Source: a virus. Taken from it: a DNA stretch of 35,328 nt. The stretch's first letter is position 1. Each line of letters opens with the position of its first letter. Positions 1 to 35,328 of this stretch are shown here, in pieces. The notes under the pieces were generated by a model. The model searched no databases and was not told where the DNA came from. It was given only the letters and a program-made list of their open reading frames with translations. The translations under genes and the position numbers were made by a program. The DNA is taken from IMG/VR virus record IMGVR_UViG_3300020583_000009. One strand, written 5' to 3'.

Positions 1-127
1 CTATTTACTGCTAAACTTAAATCAACAAGACAAGGAAAGTTATCATGCCAAAATTTAGTCAAAGTTCATTCTCGAAACTAAGTACCTGTCATCCCGACTT
101 ACAAGCCTTGTTCTACGAGGTGATCAA
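1..127. repeat. Terminal direct repeat copy 1 (identical to 35202..35328); circular-closure overlap
   Basis: Read base by base. ctatttactgctaaactt...ctacgaggtgatcaa is present at both window ends, 127/127 identical. Confidence 0.95.
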
Positions 128-458
128 GTTTTTCGACTGCACCATTTTGGAAGGGTACAGAAACGAAGCAGACCAAGAAGCAGCCTTTGCAAAAGGCAAT
201 AGTAAACTTCATTACCCACATGGCAAACATAATGCCAATCCTTCAATGGCCGTAGATGTAACGCCTTATCCTATCGACTTTAATAATGAAAAATTGGCTA
301 TCTGGTTCGGTGGTTACGTGCTAGGTATTGCCCAGAAACTTAAGGATGAGGGTAAAATGTCTCATTCTGTGCGTTGGGGTGGCTCATGGGATGGCCTCGG
401 GAAACTGGATAGACCCGGACAGCTCAATGATGCTGGTCATTTTGAATTGGTGGTGTGA
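45..458 (+). CDS. Endolysin, peptidase M15 (T5-type L-alanyl-D-glutamate peptidase / VanY-like)
   Basis: 137 aa. Zinc-ligand motifs HPHGKHNANPSMAVDVTPY and C-terminal NDAGHFELVV parallel the T5 Lys layout. No signal peptide. First gene after the junction terminator. Confidence 0.85.
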   Translation: MPKFSQSSFSKLSTCHPDLQALFYEVIKFFDCTILEGYRNEADQEAAFAKGNSKLHYPHGKHNANPSMAVDVTPYPIDFNNEKLAIWFGGYVLGIAQKLKDEGKMSHSVRWGGSWDGLGKLDRPGQLNDAGHFELVV

Positions 459-466
459 GGTGAGCT

Positions 467-685
467 ATGGACTGGCTGAAAGAGTTCTTGAAGAACAAAC
501 CACATATTGTATTATCAGTTCCAGCAATATTATGCTTCGTTACGTTTTGCACGAATCTTTACAGCGCATTAACGGATGGCAAAATTGATGCGAACGAATT
601 AAGCACGTTGCTAGGAACGGCTGACGGCTTTGAGACTGTTGTTTTATTTATCGTTATGGTAGCGTTACGCAACAAAAGAAAGTAA
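467..685 (+). CDS. Holin-like small membrane protein
   Basis: 72 aa. Two hydrophobic segments (IVLSVPAILCFVTFCTNLY; FETVVLFIVMVAL) and a basic tail RNKRK. GAGGTGA RBS. Directly follows the endolysin. Confidence 0.55.
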   Translation: MDWLKEFLKNKPHIVLSVPAILCFVTFCTNLYSALTDGKIDANELSTLLGTADGFETVVLFIVMVALRNKRK

Positions 686-707: not shown

Positions 708-723
708 CACTAAAGGATTAGTG
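708..723 (+). promoter_or_regulatory. Dyad CACTAA-AGGA-TTAGTG placing the SD of the terS-like gene in a hairpin loop
   Basis: Perfect 6-bp arms with loop AGGA, 2 nt before ATG 726. Confidence 0.4.
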
Positions 724-725
724 CA

Positions 726-1166
726 ATGACTAGAAATTCAAAGCTTACCGTGCCTGATGAGGTCAAGGACGTTGCTAGAAATAGCAAGTTTACGCCTGAG
801 CGTAGAGCCGCCATCATTCACGACATATCAAGAAGAGTTCCCTATGAACTAGCTGCCGAGGCTAACGGGATTTGTGAGTCTACTTTGTATGATTGGTTGA
901 ACACTGCAAAGGTTCATCAGCTCGAAGGATTGGACACAGAATACACTAAGTTTTCGGAGGCTATAAAAAGAGCCGAGCTTACCAAAGTACAACAACACAT
1001 TGACATAATCGCGGATAGACCCGAGAGGTGGCAAGCTGATGCTTGGCTATTGGAAAGACGATGGCCTAAATACTTCGGCAATAATGTACTGCTTAAAGAG
1101 CTTAACGAGCGTATGAATATGATGACGGGTGCCAAGAAAACTATTGAACAGGAAGATAACGAGTAA
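726..1166 (+). CDS. terS: Terminase small subunit-like HTH protein
   Basis: 146 aa. HTH VPYELAAEANGICESTLYDWL plus a C-terminal AWLLERRWPKYFG motif typical of small terminases. Lies 2.1 kb upstream of terL. Confidence 0.55.
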   Translation: MTRNSKLTVPDEVKDVARNSKFTPERRAAIIHDISRRVPYELAAEANGICESTLYDWLNTAKVHQLEGLDTEYTKFSEAIKRAELTKVQQHIDIIADRPERWQADAWLLERRWPKYFGNNVLLKELNERMNMMTGAKKTIEQEDNE

Positions 1167-1349
1167 ATGAGCTTTTTACCTTGTCCTTTTTGTGGTAGTG
1201 ATGACATCAAGACACAGACGCAGAGGTTTAATAGTCTTACAACGTGGTATCTTGTTAAGTGCAAGAACTGTACTTGCAAGGTACACCACATTAACCCGGA
1301 ACAAGCAAAGGATGCTTGGAATAGAAGGAGTTCTAACGATGGGCGCTAA
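1167..1349 (+). CDS. Lar-family restriction-alleviation-like zinc-ribbon protein
   Basis: 60 aa. CPFCG ... VKCKNCTC ... AKDAWNRR matches the Lar-family signature from memory. Confidence 0.65.
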   Translation: MSFLPCPFCGSDDIKTQTQRFNSLTTWYLVKCKNCTCKVHHINPEQAKDAWNRRSSNDGR

Positions 1350-2638: not shown

Positions 2639-2851
2639 ATGGCTAAGTTAGATGCTAAAGAGCGAAGAAAGATACCTAAGGGTGAATTTGGTTTGCCTGG
2701 TGAACGTAAATACCCGATGGAAGACAAAGCCCACGCAAAGAATGCTAAGGCCAGAGCTTCCGAGATGGAAAAGAAAGGGAAGTTGTCCATGTCATCCAAG
2801 GCTAAGATTGATGCTAAGGCTGACAAAGTGCTAGGTAAAAAGAAGAAGTAA
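2639..2851 (+). CDS. Conserved small phage protein (70 aa), function unknown
   Basis: AAGGAA RBS. The motif KIPKGEFGLPGERKYPMEDKAHAKNAKARAS resembles a widespread small phage/bacterial family. Confidence 0.6.
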   Translation: MAKLDAKERRKIPKGEFGLPGERKYPMEDKAHAKNAKARASEMEKKGKLSMSSKAKIDAKADKVLGKKKK

Positions 2852-2881: not shown

Positions 2882-3067
2882 ATGGCTACTATCCGCAATA
2901 CGTGGGTCGAGAAGATAAAGAAGAAAAAAGAGCATGAGACGGCACCATCTTATGAACGTGATCCTTTGGCTGATACCTATGCGCATGATGCGAAGAAGCC
3001 AAAAAAACGATTCTCTGTACCTGCTACCTCAATCCTAGTTCGTACACTTCGAGGGATAAGGAAATAG
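2882..3067 (+). CDS. Hypothetical basic protein (61 aa)
   Basis: ORF with the SD in the dyad above. Lys-rich. Confidence 0.55.
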   Translation: MATIRNTWVEKIKKKKEHETAPSYERDPLADTYAHDAKKPKKRFSVPATSILVRTLRGIRK

Positions 3068-3253
3068 ATGCAATGTCACAGTTGTAGCTATCCTGATTCT
3101 CGCGTGGTGGAAACGAAACGGGATGATAGGCTAAATAAAATCGTTAGACGCCGAGAGTGTATCAAATGCGGCGTTCGATTCACCACGCAAGAAAACATTC
3201 GAGAGAATCCAAACTATAAGACTCCTGCACCTAGAAGGATATTAGAGAAATGA
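3068..3253 (+). CDS. NrdR-like zinc-ribbon protein lacking the ATP-cone
   Basis: 61 aa. MQCHSCSYPDSRVVETKRDDRLNKIVRRRECIKCGVRFTTQE aligns by eye with the NrdR N-terminus (MHCPFC..DTKVIDSR....VRRRRQC..C..RFTTFE). ATGA overlap with terL. Confidence 0.7.
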   Translation: MQCHSCSYPDSRVVETKRDDRLNKIVRRRECIKCGVRFTTQENIRENPNYKTPAPRRILEK

Positions 3254-4809
3254 TTCGATCTGCTGCTGAACTATTAAAAACATTCAACGAGTATGAGGCC
3301 GGGATTAACAAAGGTACTCAGAAACAACTCACGATTCTACCCGATAGGATGATTATTCATGCGCATGAGCAAGATAAAATTTATGTTCCAACTGCCACAG
3401 GTGCTATTTTTCATGACAGCGATCAATTTGTCCGCGTCATTATGGGGCCTTATGGAAGTGGCAAATCTACGCTATCAATTGCAGAAATCGTTAAGCGAGC
3501 CTGTGAAGTGCCTGTATGGAATAACGGTAGAAGACGAAGCAGGTGGGGAATTGTGCGAAACACTTCTGGCGAGCTTGCAACCACAACCCTAGCTACTTGG
3601 CTCGCATGGTTTGATGAACTCGGAGATATCCGCAAACGCCAAAAGCCCATGCTTACCTACGAACACACCTTTAACGATGGAAAAGGAATTGTTGAGCTTG
3701 AATTACTTTTTATCGCATTAGACAGACCCGAAGACGTGCGAAAGATTAAGTCTTTGGAGCTAACAGGATGCTATATCAATGAGCTTTCCGAGGTGCCAAA
3801 AGCAGCACTTGCCCACATGAAAGGACGGGTTAACCGTTACCCATCAAAGGCATTCTGCAAAGAACCGTATTGGTCTGGAATTATAGCCGATACTAACCCA
3901 CCGGAAGATGACCATTGGATATTCAAAGACTTTGAAGAGAATTGCGCCGACAATCACATACTCTTTAAACAGCCACCCGGATTGATTAAGAACAAAGATA
4001 ATCAGTGGAGACGAAACCCTGATGCTGATAATGCCGGACATTTGCCCCATCATTACTACGAAAACTTAGCAAGTGGACAGTCTCAAGAGTTCATTAAGGT
4101 ATTTTGTCTCGGGGAATATGGAGCGGTAGGCTTCGATAAGCGCGTTTATCCTGAGTTTAACGCCGATGTACACGCAGTTGATACCTTAGAAGCCATTCAA
4201 GGCGAAAAGCTCATATTGGGCTGGGATTTCGGTTTAACACCTGCTTGTGTGGTATTGCAACTTTCAGCAAGAGGCCAATTACTTATTCTCAAAGAATATG
4301 TGAGTGATGGTTTGGGAATTAGAACCTTTGCCGAAATGGTGGTAATCCCTAACTTACGCAAGGATTTCCCCTATTGCCAAATTGGAATGTCTGTAGCAGA
4401 CCCGGCAGGTAATGCGCGCGATCAGATTCATGAGGAAATGTCTTGTATAGGTGAGCTTAATTCATTACAGATTGCTACTAATGCCGCACGAACCAATGAT
4501 TTAGAGCCAAGACTTGGAGCAGTTAGATACTTCTTGAATCGCATGGTTGATGGAAAACCTGCGTTGTTACTTGATAAAAAGAATTGTCCTACACTCTTCA
4601 AAGGCTTTGTGAAGAAGTATGTTTATGCCCGGGTTGCGGTATCAGGTGAGGAGCGTTACAAGGACAAGCCCACAAAGAATATGTCATCTCACCCAATGGA
4701 CGCCCTAGGTTATGGTTGCTTAGAGATTGCTAGCGACCAAGTAGCGCAAGATAAATTCGGTGGTACGAAGCACGAAAACATGTTTAACCCAGTGATGAGG
4801 ATTTTTTAA
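3250..4809 (+). CDS. terL: Terminase large subunit
   Basis: 519 aa. Walker A GPYGSGKST, Walker B-like LTGCYINELSE. Nuclease Asp motifs GWDFGLTP, VADPAG, HPMDALGY. Confidence 0.93.
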   Translation: MIRSAAELLKTFNEYEAGINKGTQKQLTILPDRMIIHAHEQDKIYVPTATGAIFHDSDQFVRVIMGPYGSGKSTLSIAEIVKRACEVPVWNNGRRRSRWGIVRNTSGELATTTLATWLAWFDELGDIRKRQKPMLTYEHTFNDGKGIVELELLFIALDRPEDVRKIKSLELTGCYINELSEVPKAALAHMKGRVNRYPSKAFCKEPYWSGIIADTNPPEDDHWIFKDFEENCADNHILFKQPPGLIKNKDNQWRRNPDADNAGHLPHHYYENLASGQSQEFIKVFCLGEYGAVGFDKRVYPEFNADVHAVDTLEAIQGEKLILGWDFGLTPACVVLQLSARGQLLILKEYVSDGLGIRTFAEMVVIPNLRKDFPYCQIGMSVADPAGNARDQIHEEMSCIGELNSLQIATNAARTNDLEPRLGAVRYFLNRMVDGKPALLLDKKNCPTLFKGFVKKYVYARVAVSGEERYKDKPTKNMSSHPMDALGYGCLEIASDQVAQDKFGGTKHENMFNPVMRIF

Positions 4810-5780: not shown

Positions 5781-5823
5781 CTGCAAAGTCGTTTCAGGAA
5801 GAGACGATTTAAAGCGTTTAAAA

Positions 5824-5855
5824 CGTGACTTTGACATAGATTTGTTGAAGTCACG
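5824..5855 (+). promoter_or_regulatory. Hairpin CGTGACTT/AAGTCACG just upstream of the portal gene
   Basis: 8-bp perfect arms, 16-nt loop. Ends 8 nt before ATG 5864. Confidence 0.35.
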
Positions 5856-5863
5856 ATTTAATT

Positions 5864-9170: not shown

Positions 9171-10382
9171 ATGGCTAACCAATTTATTACGACCGACCTG
9201 GTATCAAATACCGCGTTGGCAATGTTCGCGAACAACGCGCCTTTCGTGATGACAGCATCACGTATTTACCAAGATGACTTCGTATCTTCTGGGTATAAGA
9301 TAGGCGATACATTACAAGTACGAAGACAGAACCATTTTATCGTTGGTGATGGCTCCGTTGCTACTCCTCAATCAATCATTGAGACTGTAGAAACGATAGT
9401 TATTCAGCATCAATACCATGCTCTGATTGCGTACACTATCCAAGATTTGTCTTTGCGAATTGAAGACTTCTCTCGTTTGTTTATTGCTCCTGCGATTCAG
9501 GAAGTAATTACTCAAATGGAAAAGGATATTGCAGCTTCTGCTGAACAAGAGCTTAACTTCTTCACGGGTACTGCTGGCGTTGCGATTAACTCGTTCACCA
9601 CTGTAGATATGGCTGGTGCTAAATTGCTTGAGCAGGGCGTAAATATTGCGTCTGATGCTTATATGGCAATGACAGTGCGAGACGGTTCTAGCTTGAAAGG
9701 TGCGCTGTTAAACAACTTCACCCCTGTATTCAACGAAGACATCGTTCGTTCTTCTGCTATTGGTCACTTGTCCTATTTCGACATTTTCCAATCTCAAAAT
9801 ATCAAACGTCACCAAGCTGGTGCTGGCCCAACTTTGCATTCTTCTGATGCTTTATTGGTTAACGGTCAAGTTACTTCTGGTAACACAATCGTTATGGACG
9901 GCGCAACAGCGAGCGTTACTAACTATTTCTTAGTTGGTGATGTGTTCTCAATCAGTGGTGTTCAGTCTGTCAACCCTGTAGGTCGTGCATCTACTGGTCA
10001 AGATATGCAATGGGTAGTAACTGCCAATGCTAGCTCTGATGTTAGTGGTAACTTAACTGTACAAGTTGCTCCAATAATCATCTCTGATACGATGAACCCT
10101 AACCGTAACGTGAGCAATCCTATCCCTGATAACGCTGCTGTTACCTTGGTTGGTTCGCATAACGTGAACGTGGCTTACCCAAGCCGTGGTTTAGATATCG
10201 TTTGTCCTCCACTTTACAAGCTTCAAGTTCCTTATGCTTCTGTAGCGGTTGACCCTGAGACTGGTTTATCACTTGCGGTAACGCAAACTGGTGACATCTT
10301 AGGTTACCAAAACTATATGCGTATCGACTTACTTTGCGGCTTTAAGTGGCACGCACAATATGCGGTTCGTGTGTTGTCTTAA
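9171..10382 (+). CDS. Major capsid protein, P22-coat-protein-like
   Basis: 403 aa. The N-terminus MANQFITTDLVSNTALAMFANN...GDTLQVRR fits the P22 coat family pattern. Lies after the scaffold gene. Confidence 0.88.
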   Translation: MANQFITTDLVSNTALAMFANNAPFVMTASRIYQDDFVSSGYKIGDTLQVRRQNHFIVGDGSVATPQSIIETVETIVIQHQYHALIAYTIQDLSLRIEDFSRLFIAPAIQEVITQMEKDIAASAEQELNFFTGTAGVAINSFTTVDMAGAKLLEQGVNIASDAYMAMTVRDGSSLKGALLNNFTPVFNEDIVRSSAIGHLSYFDIFQSQNIKRHQAGAGPTLHSSDALLVNGQVTSGNTIVMDGATASVTNYFLVGDVFSISGVQSVNPVGRASTGQDMQWVVTANASSDVSGNLTVQVAPIIISDTMNPNRNVSNPIPDNAAVTLVGSHNVNVAYPSRGLDIVCPPLYKLQVPYASVAVDPETGLSLAVTQTGDILGYQNYMRIDLLCGFKWHAQYAVRVLS

Positions 10383-13741: not shown

Positions 13742-13755
13742 CACAAGGAATGTGA
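13742..13755 (+). promoter_or_regulatory. CACAAGGAATGTGA motif (copy 1): dyad CACA/TGTG around the SD
   Basis: Identical 14-mer at 17366-17379. Followed by CT-ATGGC. Confidence 0.55.
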
Positions 13756-17365: not shown

Positions 17366-17379
17366 CACAAGGAATGTGA
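17366..17379 (+). promoter_or_regulatory. CACAAGGAATGTGA motif (copy 2)
   Basis: Identical to 13742-13755. Followed by AT-ATGGC (fibre start 17382). Confidence 0.55.
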
Positions 17380-17381
17380 AT

Positions 17382-18974
17382 ATGGCAATTACTTACGTAC
17401 AAGCGTTTCCGCCACTTTGGTACATCGTTGGTAACGATGGCCTTGCGGCTGGCGGCGCACAAATGTTTACTTATGACTCTATAACCCGTCAACCTAAACC
17501 TGTGTATCAAGACCCAGCCGGAACCTTGGCGTGGCCAAATCCTGTAATCTTCAATTTAAATGGCACGAAAGGCCCTTTTTATTGGCAAGAGGATAGCGCA
17601 AACCCAGACGACTTGTACTATGTAGAAGTTTACGATAAAGACGGTAATCTACTCTGGCAAGCAAATGACTTTCCAGCGAGTGGATCGGGTGGTGGTGGAA
17701 ATGTGACGACCTATATAACCGTCACAAACTACATTACCAACAACCAATTTATCAACCACATTGGGGCGCAAGCGGGTCCTCTCCCTACCAACTTGGTTAT
17801 CGCCCCATCTAATCATAAAGGCTTTACTCCGGCTCTTACAAACCCAATTGTAGGAACCTACGGAGTACTTGGCCCGGATATTCGTTTTGTGAAGAACAAT
17901 ACCAACGCGGTCGATTCAATAACCTTTGTGCCTTTTGCTTTGTCCGCTGCACCTTTAACCGGAGACGTTACACCCGTTGAGTATGTGAGGTATCAATGTA
18001 CCAATACGCCAACAGGTGAAACATACAAGAGCTTTCAGTTCCCTATAACCCAAAAGGTCAAAAACTTATCGAACCAGCCTATGACATTTGGTTTTTGGGC
18101 GGCTTGTGGGTCTGGCACTCAGACAGTTAATATTTATTCACGTCAATATTACGGGTCTGGAACAGGTGCTACACCTGAATCAACCAGCACCCGAGTTAAC
18201 ATTGGTTCGGCGGTATTATCCACTACTTGGCAATGGTTCCCCATTAATTTTGTAGTTCCAACGGTAGCAGGTGGTTCTTTGGGAACGCCGGGAATGCAAA
18301 CGGATGATGACGCTTTATATATACAGATTGATATGCCTTTGGGTACTCCTTGTGACATATTATTTATAAAACCTGCATTGTTCTTGGGTTCTGCTGATCC
18401 AGATACAGAGTTTGATTCATACGACATGATTGACTCAATAGACCAAACGCCCCGGTGCGGAGATGTCAAAGCAACTTATTGGTCTTCTGCTCCTCTTGGC
18501 TGGCTTCCTATGAATGATGGTACGATAGGAAATGATGGTTCAGGTGGCACACTTGCAGTCGGGCAGTTCACGTTCCAATTGTATAAAACCCTTTGGGATG
18601 CTGTATCAAATACTTATGCGCCTGTAACAGGTGGACGGGGTGCAACGGCTCAAGCGGACTTTATAGCTAATAAAGCCTTGCAGTTACCTCTTTCATTGGG
18701 AAGGTCGATTGCGGCAACTGGAATGGGTGCCGTACTTGGTCAAAATGCAGGGGCTAACAGTGCGTCAATTACTCTGGGTGCTGCAAACTTGCCACCTCAC
18801 TCACATACCTATACCTTTACAACGGTTGGGGCTGGGTTTGGTTTTGGTTTTGCATCAGGAACGAACTTGACTACAGGTGCCGGAAACACAGGAAATGGCC
18901 CCGGAACGTCTACACCGTTCACCGTTCCTACATTGCCGTTAACATCATTCATGAATATTTATATTAAACTTTAA
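17382..18974 (+). CDS. Tail fibre protein with tail-collar-like C-terminal domain
   Basis: 530 aa from ATG 17382. GWLPMNDGT...FQLYKTLWDAV...LQLPLSLGRS...NLPPHSH resembles the phage tail collar / MdpB-type domain. Confidence 0.78.
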   Translation: MAITYVQAFPPLWYIVGNDGLAAGGAQMFTYDSITRQPKPVYQDPAGTLAWPNPVIFNLNGTKGPFYWQEDSANPDDLYYVEVYDKDGNLLWQANDFPASGSGGGGNVTTYITVTNYITNNQFINHIGAQAGPLPTNLVIAPSNHKGFTPALTNPIVGTYGVLGPDIRFVKNNTNAVDSITFVPFALSAAPLTGDVTPVEYVRYQCTNTPTGETYKSFQFPITQKVKNLSNQPMTFGFWAACGSGTQTVNIYSRQYYGSGTGATPESTSTRVNIGSAVLSTTWQWFPINFVVPTVAGGSLGTPGMQTDDDALYIQIDMPLGTPCDILFIKPALFLGSADPDTEFDSYDMIDSIDQTPRCGDVKATYWSSAPLGWLPMNDGTIGNDGSGGTLAVGQFTFQLYKTLWDAVSNTYAPVTGGRGATAQADFIANKALQLPLSLGRSIAATGMGAVLGQNAGANSASITLGAANLPPHSHTYTFTTVGAGFGFGFASGTNLTTGAGNTGNGPGTSTPFTVPTLPLTSFMNIYIKL

Positions 18975-19313: not shown

Positions 19314-19335
19314 ATCATTTAATAAGGATATTAAA

Positions 19336-20322
19336 ATGAGCACAAGTTTAGGACAAACAGTACTGTTTAACGATTTAACCCCAGCGCGAGTGGTGTCTTT
19401 AACCAACGTTGCTGGAACTTATTACAATGGCCCTAATAACAATGGAGTGGGTGCTACCCTTACCGTTGCTGCTAGCTCCTTAACAGTCGATAGCGTGGTT
19501 TTAAGTGTTGGTGACAGGGTTCTTTTACAGAATCAAACAGCCGCACTTCAAAATGGCGTTTATATCGTTGAATTAATTGCCTCAACAGTTGTTCTTGCTC
19601 GTGCCTTTGACCAACAAAGCCTTGAGCAATTGAAAGCAGGTCAATTCATTCTGATAGGAGCAGGTACAGTTAACGCTGGTGCTGCTTTCTGTCTAGTTGA
19701 ACCTTTACCTCAAAACATTGGTGTGGATGCGTTTGTGTACTTATCCTCTCCCTTGAGTGCTGCAATGGGCACAGCGGGTGCAAAAGCTGCCACTAACAAC
19801 GCGCTCCCTGATGTTGTTTCCTCTGCTGGATCAGGATTTACCGCTGGCAACTTCATCTCTGCTGTTGATACTGCTGGTTCTGCGCAAGATTCAGGATTTA
19901 ACGTATCTAACGTTCTGCAACATGCTCGTGTGGCTATGACTGCTGCTCAATGGAATGGAATGTATGCGGCTCCTTTCTTATTGGTAGCTGCACCCGGTGC
20001 TAACAAAATCAACGTGGTTGAACAAATTACCCTTGGCATGACTTTCGTATCTGCGGCTTATGCTGATGGTGGCGTGATTGGCGCTCAATACGGTAGTACT
20101 GTTCATGGCGCAGGTTCTGCTGCAAGTTCTACCGAGGCCGCTGCAGACTTCTTCGCAGGTGCAAGCACAATGTTCCGTTTAGGAAGTGGCGTTGCTACTG
20201 GCGCACCATTTGCTAATGCTGCAAACGCTGGAATCTATTTAAGTAACTTAAGTGGTGCGTTTACGACTGGTGACAGTACTTGGATTGTTGACGTTTATTA
20301 TAGAACGGTTGCTACGGTATAA
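19336..20322 (+). CDS. Fibre/spike-like structural protein
   Basis: 328 aa. The N-domain motif VGDRVLLQNQTAALQNGVYIV...ARAFD...GQFILIGAGTVNAG is common in phage fibre N-termini. Ala/Gly-rich C-terminal half. Confidence 0.6.
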   Translation: MSTSLGQTVLFNDLTPARVVSLTNVAGTYYNGPNNNGVGATLTVAASSLTVDSVVLSVGDRVLLQNQTAALQNGVYIVELIASTVVLARAFDQQSLEQLKAGQFILIGAGTVNAGAAFCLVEPLPQNIGVDAFVYLSSPLSAAMGTAGAKAATNNALPDVVSSAGSGFTAGNFISAVDTAGSAQDSGFNVSNVLQHARVAMTAAQWNGMYAAPFLLVAAPGANKINVVEQITLGMTFVSAAYADGGVIGAQYGSTVHGAGSAASSTEAAADFFAGASTMFRLGSGVATGAPFANAANAGIYLSNLSGAFTTGDSTWIVDVYYRTVATV

Positions 20323-30673: not shown

Positions 30674-30728
30674 TTTAAAACTCCTAACAATTATAATTAT
30701 GCTCATTTAAGAGCGTAGATAAACCCCA

Positions 30729-30775
30729 TATTCGCTCATTCGCCCTAAATTCGCTTTTTGACCGAATAAGCGAAT
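30729..30775. repeat. Cluster of TTCGC/TTCGGT repeats (3 direct, 2 inverted)
   Basis: TTCGC at 30731, 30739 and 30750. ACCGAA at 30761-30766 and GCGAA at 30770-30774 on the opposite strand. Lies in the intergenic region upstream of the Sak4-like gene. Confidence 0.5.
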
Positions 30776-30782
30776 AAAGTGT

Positions 30783-30992
30783 TTATCTGCGCTGCCCGTT
30801 TATACATTCAATAACCATATAAAAAGCGGCAAGCATTCCTTTTTCTTCTCCACGTTCAAGACCAAGACGCCACGTTTCGCCAATGTCTGTGAAGGCTTCA
30901 AAGTCGTTAGGGTGTTTTTCAACTTCGTCTTCCCAATAGTCGATTCGATGCTGTACCCAGTTTTTGACCTGCTCCAAAGTAGTTCTTTCCAC
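30783..30992 (-). CDS. Hypothetical protein (69 aa, GTG start)
   Basis: GTG 30992 lies 7 nt after AGAGGA. Preferred over the overlapping basic ORF 30800..31081. Confidence 0.5.
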   Translation of the reverse strand: MERTTLEQVKNWVQHRIDYWEDEVEKHPNDFEAFTDIGETWRLGLERGEEKGMLAAFYMVIECINGQRR

Positions 30993-35184: not shown

Positions 35185-35210
35185 TAGCCCTAGCAATAGG
35201 GCTATTTACT
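35185..35210 (+). terminator. Hairpin terminator at the end of the rightward early operon, immediately upstream of the lysis genes
   Basis: TAGCCCTA-GCAA-TAGGGCTA (8-bp stem, tetraloop) followed by TTTACT. Spans the start of the 127-bp repeat. Confidence 0.55.
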
Positions 35211-35328
35211 GCTAAACTTAAATCAACAAGACAAGGAAAGTTATCATGCCAAAATTTAGTCAAAGTTCATTCTCGAAACTAAGTACCTGTCATCCCGACT
35301 TACAAGCCTTGTTCTACGAGGTGATCAA
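35202..35328. repeat. Terminal direct repeat copy 2 (identical to 1..127)
   Basis: Same 127 nt as the window start. Contains the 5' end of the endolysin gene a second time. Confidence 0.95.

What the first reader, a model, noticed from the sequence alone, without database searches (positions are those of the whole stretch)
3068..3253. Stand-alone NrdR zinc-ribbon (no ATP-cone) translationally coupled to terL
The 61-aa product aligns by eye along its whole N-terminal 45 residues with the DNA-binding zinc ribbon of NrdR, the bacterial ribonucleotide-reductase repressor (C-x2-C ... D[ST][KR]V[IV][DE][ST][KR] ... VRRRR-x-C-x2-C-x2-RFTT-x-E).

It lacks the nucleotide-sensing ATP-cone that controls NrdR oligomerisation. 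Such a truncated mimic could compete for NrdR boxes and uncouple host dNTP synthesis from dATP feedback. It could also have been recruited to bind phage DNA.

Its position is unusual for a regulator: an ATGA overlap with terL, at the end of an accessory micro-ORF cluster.
Basis: partly seen in the sequence, partly recalled or inferred. Interest (0 to 1): 0.65.

Follow-up and report, generated by a model that had tools for sequence, protein, structure and literature searches.

The report
NrdR-type zinc ribbon wedded to terminase
A 61-residue phage protein is a genuine copy of the DNA-binding zinc ribbon of the bacterial repressor NrdR without its nucleotide sensor, and because it sits locked in front of the DNA-packaging enzyme gene in a large group of uncultured phages, it more likely helps package phage DNA than controls host nucleotide synthesis.

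Summary
ORF 3068..3253 encodes a 61-aa protein that matches Pfam Zn_ribbon_NrdR end to end (49 bits, cutoff 27). Its model superposes on NrdR structures at 1.3-1.7 Å. It has no ATP-cone, and its stop overlaps the terL start (ATGA).

It is not a one-off. At least 744 clusters of 52-66-aa ribbon-only proteins exist. In every sampled locus with resolvable context (about 95) the gene lies upstream of one terL lineage, abutting or overlapping it in all but one. These are ~35-kb P22-portal-type phages, including a Legionella anisa prophage.

The NrdR-box mimic idea is poorly supported:
- The base-reading residues D15, R17 and R26, about 95-98% conserved in cellular NrdRs, are replaced (E15/K17/V26) and hypervariable across the phage family.
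- The window has no NrdR boxes and no nrd genes.
- The proposed dyads are mRNA hairpins that present Shine-Dalgarno sequences.

Ribbon-pairing and DNA-backbone residues are invariant, and a C-terminal tail is under purifying selection. A separate Sf6-type TerS lies upstream.

Best reading (confidence 0.4): a terminase-associated DNA-binding/bending adaptor. Function is inferred, not shown.

Side finding: a probable overprinted ORF inside terL.

The parts
3068..3253 (+). Gene for the stand-alone NrdR-type zinc ribbon (61 aa). Residues 1-44 form the ribbon: C3, C6, C31, C34, with strands 11-19, 24-31 and 37-43. Residues 45-61 form an unstructured conserved tail, ...NPNYKTPAPRRILEK.
   Evidence: ORF and sequence. 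Pfam PF22811 at 49.4 bits, positions 1-42/42. Model and NrdR fold matches. Family alignment A1. pN/pS is 0.25 for the ribbon and 0.27 for the tail, with all synonymous codons used at the invariant T, P and L residues.
3250..4809 (+). terL (terminase large subunit, 519 aa). Its ATG overlaps the ribbon gene's stop codon (ATGA).
   Evidence: phrog_2 terminase large subunit, E 7.5e-31. TIGR01547, E 8e-14. The 4-nt overlap was confirmed in 75 of the 79 loci with a delimited ribbon ORF; the other 4 show ATGA/GTGA but no long downstream ORF was called.
3235..3239 (+). Shine-Dalgarno (AAGGA) for terL, embedded in the codons of the ribbon tail (R-R-I), 10 nt before the terL ATG.
   Evidence: Sequence. 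SD-hairpin scan. Codon table of the tail.
2882..3067 (+). o2882: a conserved basic 61-aa ORF of unknown function whose stop codon abuts the ribbon ATG. It is the first gene of the translationally linked cassette o2882-ribbon-terL.
   Evidence: Found in 70 of 87 related loci and always ending just before the ribbon start. 26 homologues, no Pfam, PHROG or NCBIfam match. AlphaFold model poor (pLDDT 60): two short helices and a disordered linker.
2639..2851 (+). DUF6582-like 70-aa ORF, often present just upstream of o2882.
   Evidence: phrog_16160, E 3.5e-26. Pfam DUF6582 weak match. Present in 46 of 87 loci.
726..1166 (+). terS: an Sf6-gp1-type small terminase (146 aa), separated from terL by variable cargo plus the conserved cassette.
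   Evidence: phrog_4102 terminase small subunit, E 1.1e-16. hhalign of family profile A4 against Sf6 gp1 (sequence verified as PDB 4DYC/3HEF): probability 90.3%, E 1.5e-6, 98 columns. Present in 73 of 87 loci, 378-2439 bp upstream of the ribbon gene.
3058..3063 (+). Shine-Dalgarno (AAGGAA) of the ribbon gene, inside the last codons of o2882.
   Evidence: Sequence read directly.

Best explanation
The protein is a terminase-associated DNA-binding adaptor built from an exapted NrdR zinc ribbon.

Shown:
- It has the NrdR ribbon fold.
- It keeps every residue that NrdR uses to pair two ribbons into one DNA-binding unit (R27, R29, E42, strand beta3) and to clamp the DNA backbone (R12, R28, R37).
- It has replaced the base-reading residues.
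- It has swapped the ATP-cone for a short conserved tail.
- It is encoded in a translationally linked cassette ending in terL, and this arrangement holds across a whole phage lineage that also carries a separate Sf6-type TerS.

Inferred:
- It forms a ribbon homodimer that binds, and like NrdR sharply bends, a phage DNA site near where packaging starts.
- Its specificity has diverged from the NrdR box.
- Its tail docks onto TerL (or TerS).
- Translational coupling supplies it in step with TerL.
- It thereby supplies DNA recognition or architecture that Sf6/P22-type small terminases provide only weakly on their own.
For: 1. Fold and domain: Pfam, PDB sequence search and fold search all place it with NrdR ribbons.

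2. Residue pattern: R27-R29, R37 and E42 are 100% conserved in the close family (32/32), in the wider stand-alone set (41/41) and in cellular NrdRs (62/62). R12 is 31/32 in the close family. Their roles in DNA-backbone contact and ribbon pairing come from PMC9110341 and PMC12176259.

3. Synteny: the ATGA/GTGA junction with terL is seen in every one of the 79 loci with a delimited ribbon ORF. Seven much more divergent ribbons, with different tails, still lie upstream of a TerL 49-77% identical to the window's, six of them abutting or overlapping it. The 0.4-2.4 kb between terS and the cassette is variable cargo. So the ribbon behaves like a core packaging-module gene, not a moron.

4. In distant cultured relatives of this TerL (BcepC6B, Pmp11) the slot directly 5' of terL is occupied by a TerS of 237-239 aa.

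5. The tail Y-K-T-P-x-P-[RK]-x-[IV]-L-E-K is under protein-level purifying selection (pN/pS 0.27), with synonymous codons freely used. It is predicted to be unstructured. This is typical of a docking peptide. P22 TerS uses a flexible C-terminal tail for TerL association (PMC9611059).

6. No promoter or terminator separates it from the lysis/terS/terL message.

7. Review literature states that TerS-pac binding in Sf6, P22 and SPP1-type headful packagers is weak or non-specific in vitro and remains unresolved. That leaves room for an extra specificity or architecture factor.
Against: - No DNA target was found. A family-wide search for shared palindromes returned only coding-sequence conservation and the SD hairpin. 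The one region of suppressed synonymous change near the gene is better explained by an overprinted ORF.
- There is no physical or co-evolutionary evidence for a ribbon-TerL contact, and no ribbon-TerL or ribbon-TerS fusion proteins were found.
- ATGA overlaps are common in compact phage operons, so coupling alone is weak evidence.
- Tails differ between subfamilies, so any TerL-docking motif is not universal.
- A canonical TerS is already present, so the ribbon is not obviously needed.
- Hypervariable base-contact positions would also fit loss of specific DNA binding.
Confidence: 0.4

Rival explanations
1. Dominant-negative anti-NrdR. The free ribbon pairs with the zinc ribbon of the host NrdR through the conserved beta3/R27/R29/E42 interface. 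This caps the host protein, so the ribbon-paired tetramer that binds NrdR boxes cannot form. Host ribonucleotide reductase genes are derepressed while phage DNA is being made and packaged.
For: - Ribbon-pairing residues are invariant while base-reading residues are not. That is the pattern expected of a protein that must pair but need not read an NrdR box.
- NrdR tetramers depend on pairwise ribbon contacts, which bury about 1200 Å2 (PMC9110341; PMC12176259).
- The phage has no RNR genes of its own.
- NrdR is near-universal in bacteria, so the trick would be portable.
Against: - The gene is fixed in the packaging cassette of the late message rather than among early or host-takeover genes. Derepressing transcription that late would yield little extra enzyme.
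- DNA-backbone contact residues R12, R28 and R37 are also conserved, which capping would not require.
- The tail is conserved for some other partner.
- The ribbons are not especially similar to gammaproteobacterial NrdRs. The best cellular matches are 48-56% identical and mostly from Firmicutes, so there is no sign of host-matched mimicry.
- Moron-like host-manipulation genes in these phages vary in presence and place, whereas this one never does.
Confidence: 0.13
2. One reading: an NrdR-box competitor. The ribbon alone occupies host NrdR boxes and displaces the nucleotide-responsive repressor.
For: It has the same fold and the same Arg-rich DNA-backbone clamp as NrdR.
Against: - D15, R17 and R26 are replaced and vary within the family.
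- A ribbon sitting on the box would itself repress, because NrdR boxes overlap the transcription start site (PMC9110341).
- NrdR needs two boxes bridged by ATP-cone-linked ribbon pairs for specific binding.
- The phage has no boxes of its own.
Confidence: 0.04
3. Regulator of late gene expression. This would be a small zinc-binding DNA-binding (or RNA-binding) protein that tunes transcription or translation of the packaging and head genes. It would be analogous in size and chemistry to the Ogr/Delta late activators, or to translational repressors acting on SD-containing hairpins.
For: - Small Zn-binding late regulators are a known phage theme (Ogr/Delta family; my own knowledge).
- The phage uses unusual SD-in-hairpin-loop ribosome-binding sites at at least 15 genes, including terS, o2882 and terL.
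- The terS hairpin 16-mer is nucleotide-invariant in 33 loci, beyond what base pairing alone requires.
Against: - There is no Ogr_Delta match for this protein.
- It is made from the late message itself, not ahead of it.
- The terS hairpin stays identical while ribbon residue 17 changes (K/T/R), and where the hairpin varies it does not track the ribbon.
- The NrdR ribbon is known to bind kinked B-DNA, not RNA stems.
- SD hairpins occur on both strands and in early genes as well.
Confidence: 0.13
4. The ribbon protein, alone or with o2882, is the functional pac-recognition (small terminase) subunit, and the Sf6-like HTH protein has another or a redundant role.
For: - It occupies the canonical TerS slot directly 5' of terL.
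- It has a DNA-binding domain plus a C-terminal tail, the two end modules of a TerS.
Against: - At about 7 kDa it lacks the helical oligomerisation core that defines TerS (15-21 kDa; PMC9611059). The model contains no helices.
- A well-conserved Sf6-type TerS is present in every locus with enough upstream sequence.
Confidence: 0.08

Closest known systems
NrdR, the bacterial ribonucleotide-reductase repressor (Pfam PF22811 + PF03477; TIGR00244; PDB 7P37, 9FVR)
   Same: - Same 4-Cys zinc-ribbon fold, rmsd 1.3-1.7 Å.
- Same RRR motif, R37 and E42.
- Same residues for ribbon-ribbon pairing and DNA-backbone contact.
   Different: - No ATP-cone, so no nucleotide sensing and no cone-mediated tetramer.
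- Base-reading D15/R17/R26 replaced and variable.
- Carries a conserved C-terminal tail instead.
- Encoded in a phage packaging cassette rather than near nrd or rib genes.
- No NrdR boxes nearby.
Small terminase subunits of headful packagers (Sf6 gp1, P22 gp3)
   Same: - Gene position directly 5' of terL with overlapping stop and start.
- A DNA-binding module followed by a flexible conserved C-terminal tail, which in P22 TerS is needed for TerL association.
   Different: - One third of the size.
- A zinc ribbon instead of a helix-turn-helix.
- No helical oligomerisation core.
- The phage already has an Sf6-type TerS.
Accessory terminase factors encoded beside terminase genes, and host DNA-bending helpers: HK97 gp74 HNH protein, and IHF at lambda cosB (my own knowledge, not tested here)
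   Same: A small extra nucleic-acid-binding protein, or a DNA-bending protein, that assists terminase at the packaging start site. The HK97 gp74 gene is adjacent to the terminase genes.
   Different: - No HNH motif and no nuclease signature.
- Unrelated fold.
- No experimental link to packaging yet.
Ogr/Delta family of small zinc-binding late-gene activators of P2/P4-type phages (Pfam PF04606)
   Same: A phage protein of about 60-70 aa with four zinc-binding cysteines, presumed to bind DNA.
   Different: - No sequence match for this protein; only the neighbouring Lar-like ORF 1167..1349 gives a weak Ogr_Delta hit.
- Encoded inside the late operon and welded to terL.

Membership tests
NrdR transcriptional repressor (TIGR00244) | N-terminal four-cysteine zinc ribbon of the NrdR type (two CxxC motifs, RRRR-x-C motif, FTT-x-E strand) | tested here: met
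   PF22811 at 49.4 bits against cutoff 27.2, full model. The top 13 PDB fold hits are NrdR. C3, C6, C31 and C34 are invariant.
NrdR transcriptional repressor (TIGR00244) | C-terminal ATP-cone domain that senses ATP/dATP and controls oligomeric state | tested here: not met
   The protein ends at residue 61. TIGR00244 aligns only to positions 1-46 of 147, at 36.2 bits against a cutoff of 124.65. No ATP-cone hit appears in Pfam. All 31 close homologues and the 120 listed wider homologues are 52-66 aa with PF22811 only.
NrdR transcriptional repressor (TIGR00244) | Base-specific contact residues D15 and R17 (plus backbone contact R26) that read the NrdR box | tested here: not met
   The window protein has E15, K17 and V26. 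Cellular NrdRs have D 59/62, R 61/62 and R 59/62. In the phage family position 15 is E 31/32, position 17 is T/K/R/N and position 26 is Y/V/M/T... These positions are hypervariable in the wider stand-alone set. Residue roles come from PMC9110341.
NrdR transcriptional repressor (TIGR00244) | Ribbon-pairing residues (R27, R29, E42, beta3) and backbone clamps (R12, R28, R37) | tested here: met
   R27-R29, R37 and E42 are 100% conserved in all three sets. R12 is 31/32 in the close family.
NrdR transcriptional repressor (TIGR00244) | Acts on paired 16-bp NrdR boxes at promoters of nrd operons | tested here: not met
   In the window the consensus ACACWATATATWGTGT with up to 3 mismatches gives 2 matches against 0.84 expected; 20 of 100 shuffles do as well. 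No RNR genes are found among the 20 largest ORFs. Host nrd promoters could not be examined.
Pfam PF22811 Zn_ribbon_NrdR (domain family) | Score above the curated gathering threshold over the whole domain | tested here: met
   49.4 bits against 27.2, positions 1-42/42.
Small terminase subunit (TerS) | Protomer of 15-21 kDa with an N-terminal HTH DNA-binding domain and a central helical oligomerisation core (PMC9611059) | tested here: not met
   The protein is 61 aa (about 7 kDa). The model has three beta strands and no helices. There is no TerS family hit in Pfam or PHROGs.
Small terminase subunit (TerS) | Gene immediately upstream of terL, co-expressed with it | tested here: met
   ATGA overlap in the window and across the family.
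Small terminase subunit (TerS) | Binds TerL (often through a flexible C-terminal part) and recognises pac or cos DNA | not testable with these tools
   There is only indirect evidence: a conserved, unstructured tail under purifying selection. No complex prediction or binding assay was available.
Ogr/Delta late activators (PF04606) | Match to the Ogr_Delta zinc-finger model | tested here: not met
   No such hit for the ribbon protein at E <= 1.

The most novel reading that the evidence does not exclude
The free ribbon is a phage-encoded poison of the host repressor NrdR. By pairing with the NrdR zinc ribbon it would prevent the ribbon-paired tetramer from forming on NrdR boxes. Host dNTP synthesis would then be unlocked exactly when TerL is made, linking nucleotide supply to genome packaging. 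It would be the first viral anti-repressor aimed at the universal RNR regulator, and it would act by domain mimicry of a dimer interface rather than of a DNA site.
Probability: 0.13. Interest if true: 0.75.

Novelty: new variant of a known kind. Interest (0 to 1): 0.52.

Why it matters
- **Annotation.** Hundreds of short phage proteins are currently auto-labelled 'transcriptional repressor NrdR'. They lack the sensor domain and the box-reading residues, so that label is misleading.
- **Evolution.** A DNA-binding module of a universal bacterial repressor has been captured, stripped of its regulatory domain, given a new tail and fixed inside the packaging operon of a large, uncultured phage lineage. 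That lineage includes a second, uncharacterised type of Legionella prophage.
- **Mechanism.** How headful-packaging phages with Sf6/P22-type small terminases recognise their own DNA is still unresolved (PMC9611059). A third, sequence-reading and DNA-kinking component would be a concrete, testable answer for this lineage.
- **If the rival is right.** If the anti-NrdR reading is correct instead, it would reveal a cheap viral route to control host dNTP supply.

Tried and rejected
- **NrdR boxes in the window:** none above chance.
rejected. They are SD sequences in hairpin loops. Their arms are lost in distant relatives. The terS example covaries like RNA, with G-U pairs on the sense strand. The design is genome-wide.
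- **Resemblance of the terS hairpin arms (CACTA/TAGTG) to NrdR-box arms:** the spacing is 2 bp wider, the centre is GGA rather than AT-rich, and there is no co-variation with ribbon residue 17. I treat it as coincidence.
- **Family-wide search for shared palindromes from terS to portal:** only coding conservation (for example DQW in portal, FKDFE in TerL) and the SD hairpin.
- **Synonymous-rate scan for an embedded pac-like site:** one strong dip in the 5' part of terL. It coincides with a conserved +1 ORF and stop-avoiding codon choice, so it is not evidence for a ribbon-binding site.
- **Domain fusions of the phage-type ribbon with TerL or TerS:** none. The long hits are chimeric or duplicated NrdRs or unrelated fusions.
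- **Cultured phages:** no megablast match. tblastn with the ribbon found only bacterial nrdR loci filed as phage.
- **Legionella phage LME-1:** T7-like and unrelated.
- **TerS assignment:** sequence and profile searches of the PDB gave nothing. NCBIfam gave nothing. Only PHROGs and hhalign against Sf6 gp1 succeeded.
- **o2882:** no family match and a poor model.
- the locus search with the diverse alignment A2 and the structure prediction with locus-derived alignment A4.
- **Literature:** no paper on stand-alone phage NrdR ribbons or zinc-ribbon small terminases.

Full report
**1. The observation**

ORF 3068..3253 (+) encodes MQCHSCSYPDSRVVETKRDDRLNKIVRRRECIKCGVRFTTQENIRENPNYKTPAPRRILEK. Its TGA overlaps the ATG of a 519-aa gene (3250..4809). 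That gene is a terminase large subunit (phrog_2, E 7.5e-31; TIGR01547, E 8e-14).

Pfam's NrdR zinc-ribbon model PF22811 matches positions 1-42 of 42 at 49.4 bits (gathering cutoff 27.2). The full-length NrdR model TIGR00244 aligns only to its first 46 of 147 positions and scores 36 bits against a cutoff of 124.65. The best PDB sequence hits are NrdRs.

An AlphaFold model built on 32 family sequences (pLDDT 80) has three strands (11-19, 24-31, 37-43) and an unstructured tail. Its 13 best PDB fold matches are all NrdR, at rmsd 1.3-1.7 Å over 43 residues, and the next hits have E > 0.1.

**2. The setting**

The first ~128 bases of the window recur at its end, from 35201, so it is a closed genome of about 35.2 kb. 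It carries a P22-type portal and coat, a lambda-P-like replication protein, and AAA_24, DUF669 and VRR-NUC proteins. None of the 20 largest ORFs is a ribonucleotide reductase. It has no close relative among GenBank phages.

The gene order on the + strand is:
- endolysin (45..458)
- a small 72-aa ORF (467..685) in the usual holin position, with no family match
- a 146-aa HTH protein (726..1166)
- about 1.5 kb of small ORFs, including a Lar-like protein
- DUF6582 (2639..2851)
- a basic 61-aa ORF, o2882 (2882..3067)
- the ribbon gene
- terL
- small ORFs
- portal

The 146-aa protein is a small terminase of the Sf6 gp1 type. It matches phrog_4102 with E 1.1e-16. The family profile aligns to Sf6 gp1 with 90% probability and E 1.5e-6 over 98 columns. 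I recalled the Sf6 sequence from memory and verified it against PDB 4DYC/3HEF. No + strand promoter-like or terminator-like signal lies between terS and the end of terL.

**3. How general it is**

The deep word-indexed search found 31 close homologues, all 61-65 aa with PF22811 only. One lies in Legionella anisa chromosomes inside a prophage with a P22-type portal and coat. IMG/VR holds at least 87 loci.

The junction with terL is ATGA, or GTGA in one case, in all 79 loci where I could delimit the ribbon ORF. The script confirmed the 4-nt overlap with a long terL ORF in 75 of these. An Sf6-type terS is present in 73 of 87 loci, which is every locus with enough upstream sequence, at 378-2439 bp upstream. 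o2882 is present in 70 of 87 loci and always abuts the ribbon start.

An exhaustive profile search found 4428 proteins at E <= 0.001, most of them NrdRs. The top of the list is dominated by stand-alone ribbons of 50-70 aa. A profile of 48 such divergent proteins recovered 744 clusters at E <= 1e-5, and the best 120 are all 52-66 aa.

Seven of these divergent ribbons, with unrelated tails, were examined in context. All lie upstream of a TerL 49-77% identical to the window's, and an Sf6-like TerS lies further upstream in six of the seven. One locus (L170) has an 89-aa ORF inserted between the ribbon and terL.

Cultured phages whose TerL is 35-40% identical (BcepC6B, Pmp11) have no ribbon. They have a TerS of 237-239 aa in that slot. 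tblastn of the ribbon against GenBank phages returns only bacterial nrdR loci.

**4. What has been kept and what has been changed relative to NrdR**

The cryo-EM and crystal studies assign these roles (PMC9110341; PMC12176259):
- R12, R26-29 and R37 contact the DNA backbone.
- D15 and R17 give base specificity.
- R27, R29, E42 and strand 39-45 mediate ribbon-ribbon pairing.
- A ribbon pair binds each box and kinks it by about 90 degrees.

In 62 cellular NrdRs, D15 is 59/62, R17 is 61/62 and R26 is 59/62. In the close phage family, position 15 is E (31/32), position 17 is T/K/R/N and position 26 is Y/V/M/T... In the wider stand-alone set, positions 12, 15, 17 and 26 are hypervariable. R27-R29, R37 and E42 are 100% conserved in all three sets.

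The ATP-cone is replaced by a tail, Y-K-T-P-x-P-[RK]-x-[IV]-L-E-K. Its pN/pS (0.27) equals that of the ribbon (0.25). Its invariant T, P and L residues use all their synonymous codons. So the tail is conserved as a peptide, not merely as the terL ribosome-binding site that it also encodes.

**5. Search for a target**

- The window has no NrdR boxes above chance.
The arms are lost in distant relatives.
- A family-wide palindrome search surfaced one striking element. CACTAAAGGATTAGTG lies 16-19 nt before the terS ATG in most of the 33 of 88 loci that carry it, nucleotide for nucleotide.
- The other loci carry compensatory variants and sense-strand G-U pairs. On 24 distinct leaders, 86.8% of cells pair against 66% in shuffles (0/500). 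There are 28 double-sided changes against 8 expected, and slid controls reach at most 49%.
- This is an mRNA hairpin that presents the SD in its loop. At least 15 genes on both strands use the same design. It does not co-vary with the ribbon.
- A synonymous-rate scan found one strong dip in terL codons 51-65 (0.36 against 0.80; 0/2000 permutations). That region holds a conserved +1 reading frame (see section 8), so it is not evidence for a DNA site.
- No target was identified.

**6. Interpretation**

Shown: an NrdR-fold ribbon that keeps its pairing and backbone-clamp residues, has lost the NrdR base-reading residues and the nucleotide sensor, has gained a constrained tail, and is fixed as the gene before terL throughout a phage lineage that also has a conventional TerS.

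Inferred: it works with the terminase as a ribbon homodimer that binds and bends phage DNA, with its tail contacting TerL or TerS. I give this 0.4.

The review literature notes that TerS-pac recognition in Sf6, P22 and SPP1-type phages is weak in vitro and unresolved. That makes an extra recognition or architecture factor plausible, but it does not prove one.

Rivals:
- Capping of host NrdR through the conserved pairing surface: 0.13.
- A late transcription or translation regulator: 0.13.
- The ribbon as the true pac-recognition subunit: 0.08.
- The original NrdR-box competitor: 0.04.
- The remainder is 'something else'.

**7. Comparison and novelty**

By domain, this is a member of PF22811. 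It is not an NrdR: the ATP-cone, the base-reading residues and the boxes were all tested and not met. It is not a TerS by architecture either.

I found no paper describing stand-alone phage NrdR ribbons or zinc-ribbon terminase partners. I rate it a new variant of a known kind: a known domain in a new architecture and a new functional neighbourhood. It is robust and widespread, but the mechanism rests on inference.

**8. Side findings**

(a) Window 3359..3592 (+1 frame inside terL) looks like an overprinted gene.
- The frame is open across terL nt 110-300 in 66 of 67 distinct sequences, against about 9% expected under synonymous-codon randomisation. Control segments are open in 0-39 of 67.
- An ATG with an upstream AGGATG/GGGATG is present in 65 of 67.
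- terL avoids ATA and GTA exactly where they would create +1 stops.

(b) SD-in-hairpin-loop ribosome-binding sites occur genome-wide.

(c) The Legionella anisa prophage is of a different type from the only described tailed Legionella phage, LME-1, which is T7-like.

Noticed in passing
window 3359..3592 (+), frame +1 inside terL (terL codons ~37-115): Probable overprinted 77-aa gene. Synonymous variation in terL is suppressed here (0.36 against 0.80; 0/2000 permutations). The +1 frame is open in 66 of 67 family sequences against about 9% expected. An ATG with an upstream AGGATG/GGGATG is kept in 65 of 67. terL avoids ATA and GTA only where they would make +1 stops. The product has a hydrophobic N-terminal half and an acidic C-terminal half, with no PHROG match.
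   Followed up: partly
window 708-723 (CACTAAAGGATTAGTG; terS ATG at 726); similar elements at 2864-2877, 13742-13754, 17366-17382, 19319-19336 and others: Ribosome-binding sites presented in the loop of a short hairpin. The terS example is an invariant 16-mer in 33 of 88 related loci and shows RNA-type covariation elsewhere: 86.8% paired against 66% in shuffles, with 28 double-sided changes. At least 15 genes on both strands use this design. Why the terS stem sequence is invariant beyond its pairing needs is unexplained.
   Followed up: partly
window 5818-5861 (+), just before the portal gene (5864): A 13-pair hairpin followed by a T-rich run. It is the only + strand terminator-like site between the lysis genes and portal, and could be an attenuator or processing site separating the packaging genes from the head genes.
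   Followed up: no
window 2882..3067 (+): o2882 is a basic 61-aa protein conserved in 70 of 87 loci and translationally abutting the ribbon gene. It has no family match, and its model is poor (two short helices and a disordered linker). It may be a partner of the ribbon protein.
   Followed up: partly
window 1-128 and 35201-35328: A terminal direct repeat of about 128 bases, meaning the window is a circularly closed assembly of a genome of about 35.2 kb.
   Followed up: yes
L001/L002 (Legionella anisa contigs), ribbon gene at 10001-10186: A prophage of this ribbon-bearing, P22-portal type is integrated in Legionella anisa chromosomes. It differs from the only characterised tailed Legionella phage, LME-1, which is T7-like. 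This is the only firm host link; other 'hosts' are MAG bins that probably contain phage contigs.
   Followed up: partly
L004 10192-12932 (related locus): terL is split into pieces, with HNH_3 endonuclease ORFs inserted nearby. The portal is also fragmented, which suggests homing-endonuclease or intron/intein-type insertions, or assembly errors.
   Followed up: no
window 30712-30793: A large imperfect inverted repeat (38-nt arms, 79% complementary, 6 nt apart) in the gap between two minus-strand early ORFs. It may be an origin or operator region.
   Followed up: no
window 1167..1349 (+): A Lar-like restriction-alleviation zinc protein (Pfam Lar_restr_allev, E 2e-8) sits directly after terS, as part of the variable cargo between terS and the ribbon cassette.
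   Followed up: no
L073/L074/L081, just upstream of o2882: A tRNA-like 3' end (GGTTCGAATCC...CCA) lies in the variable cargo region of some relatives.
   Followed up: no
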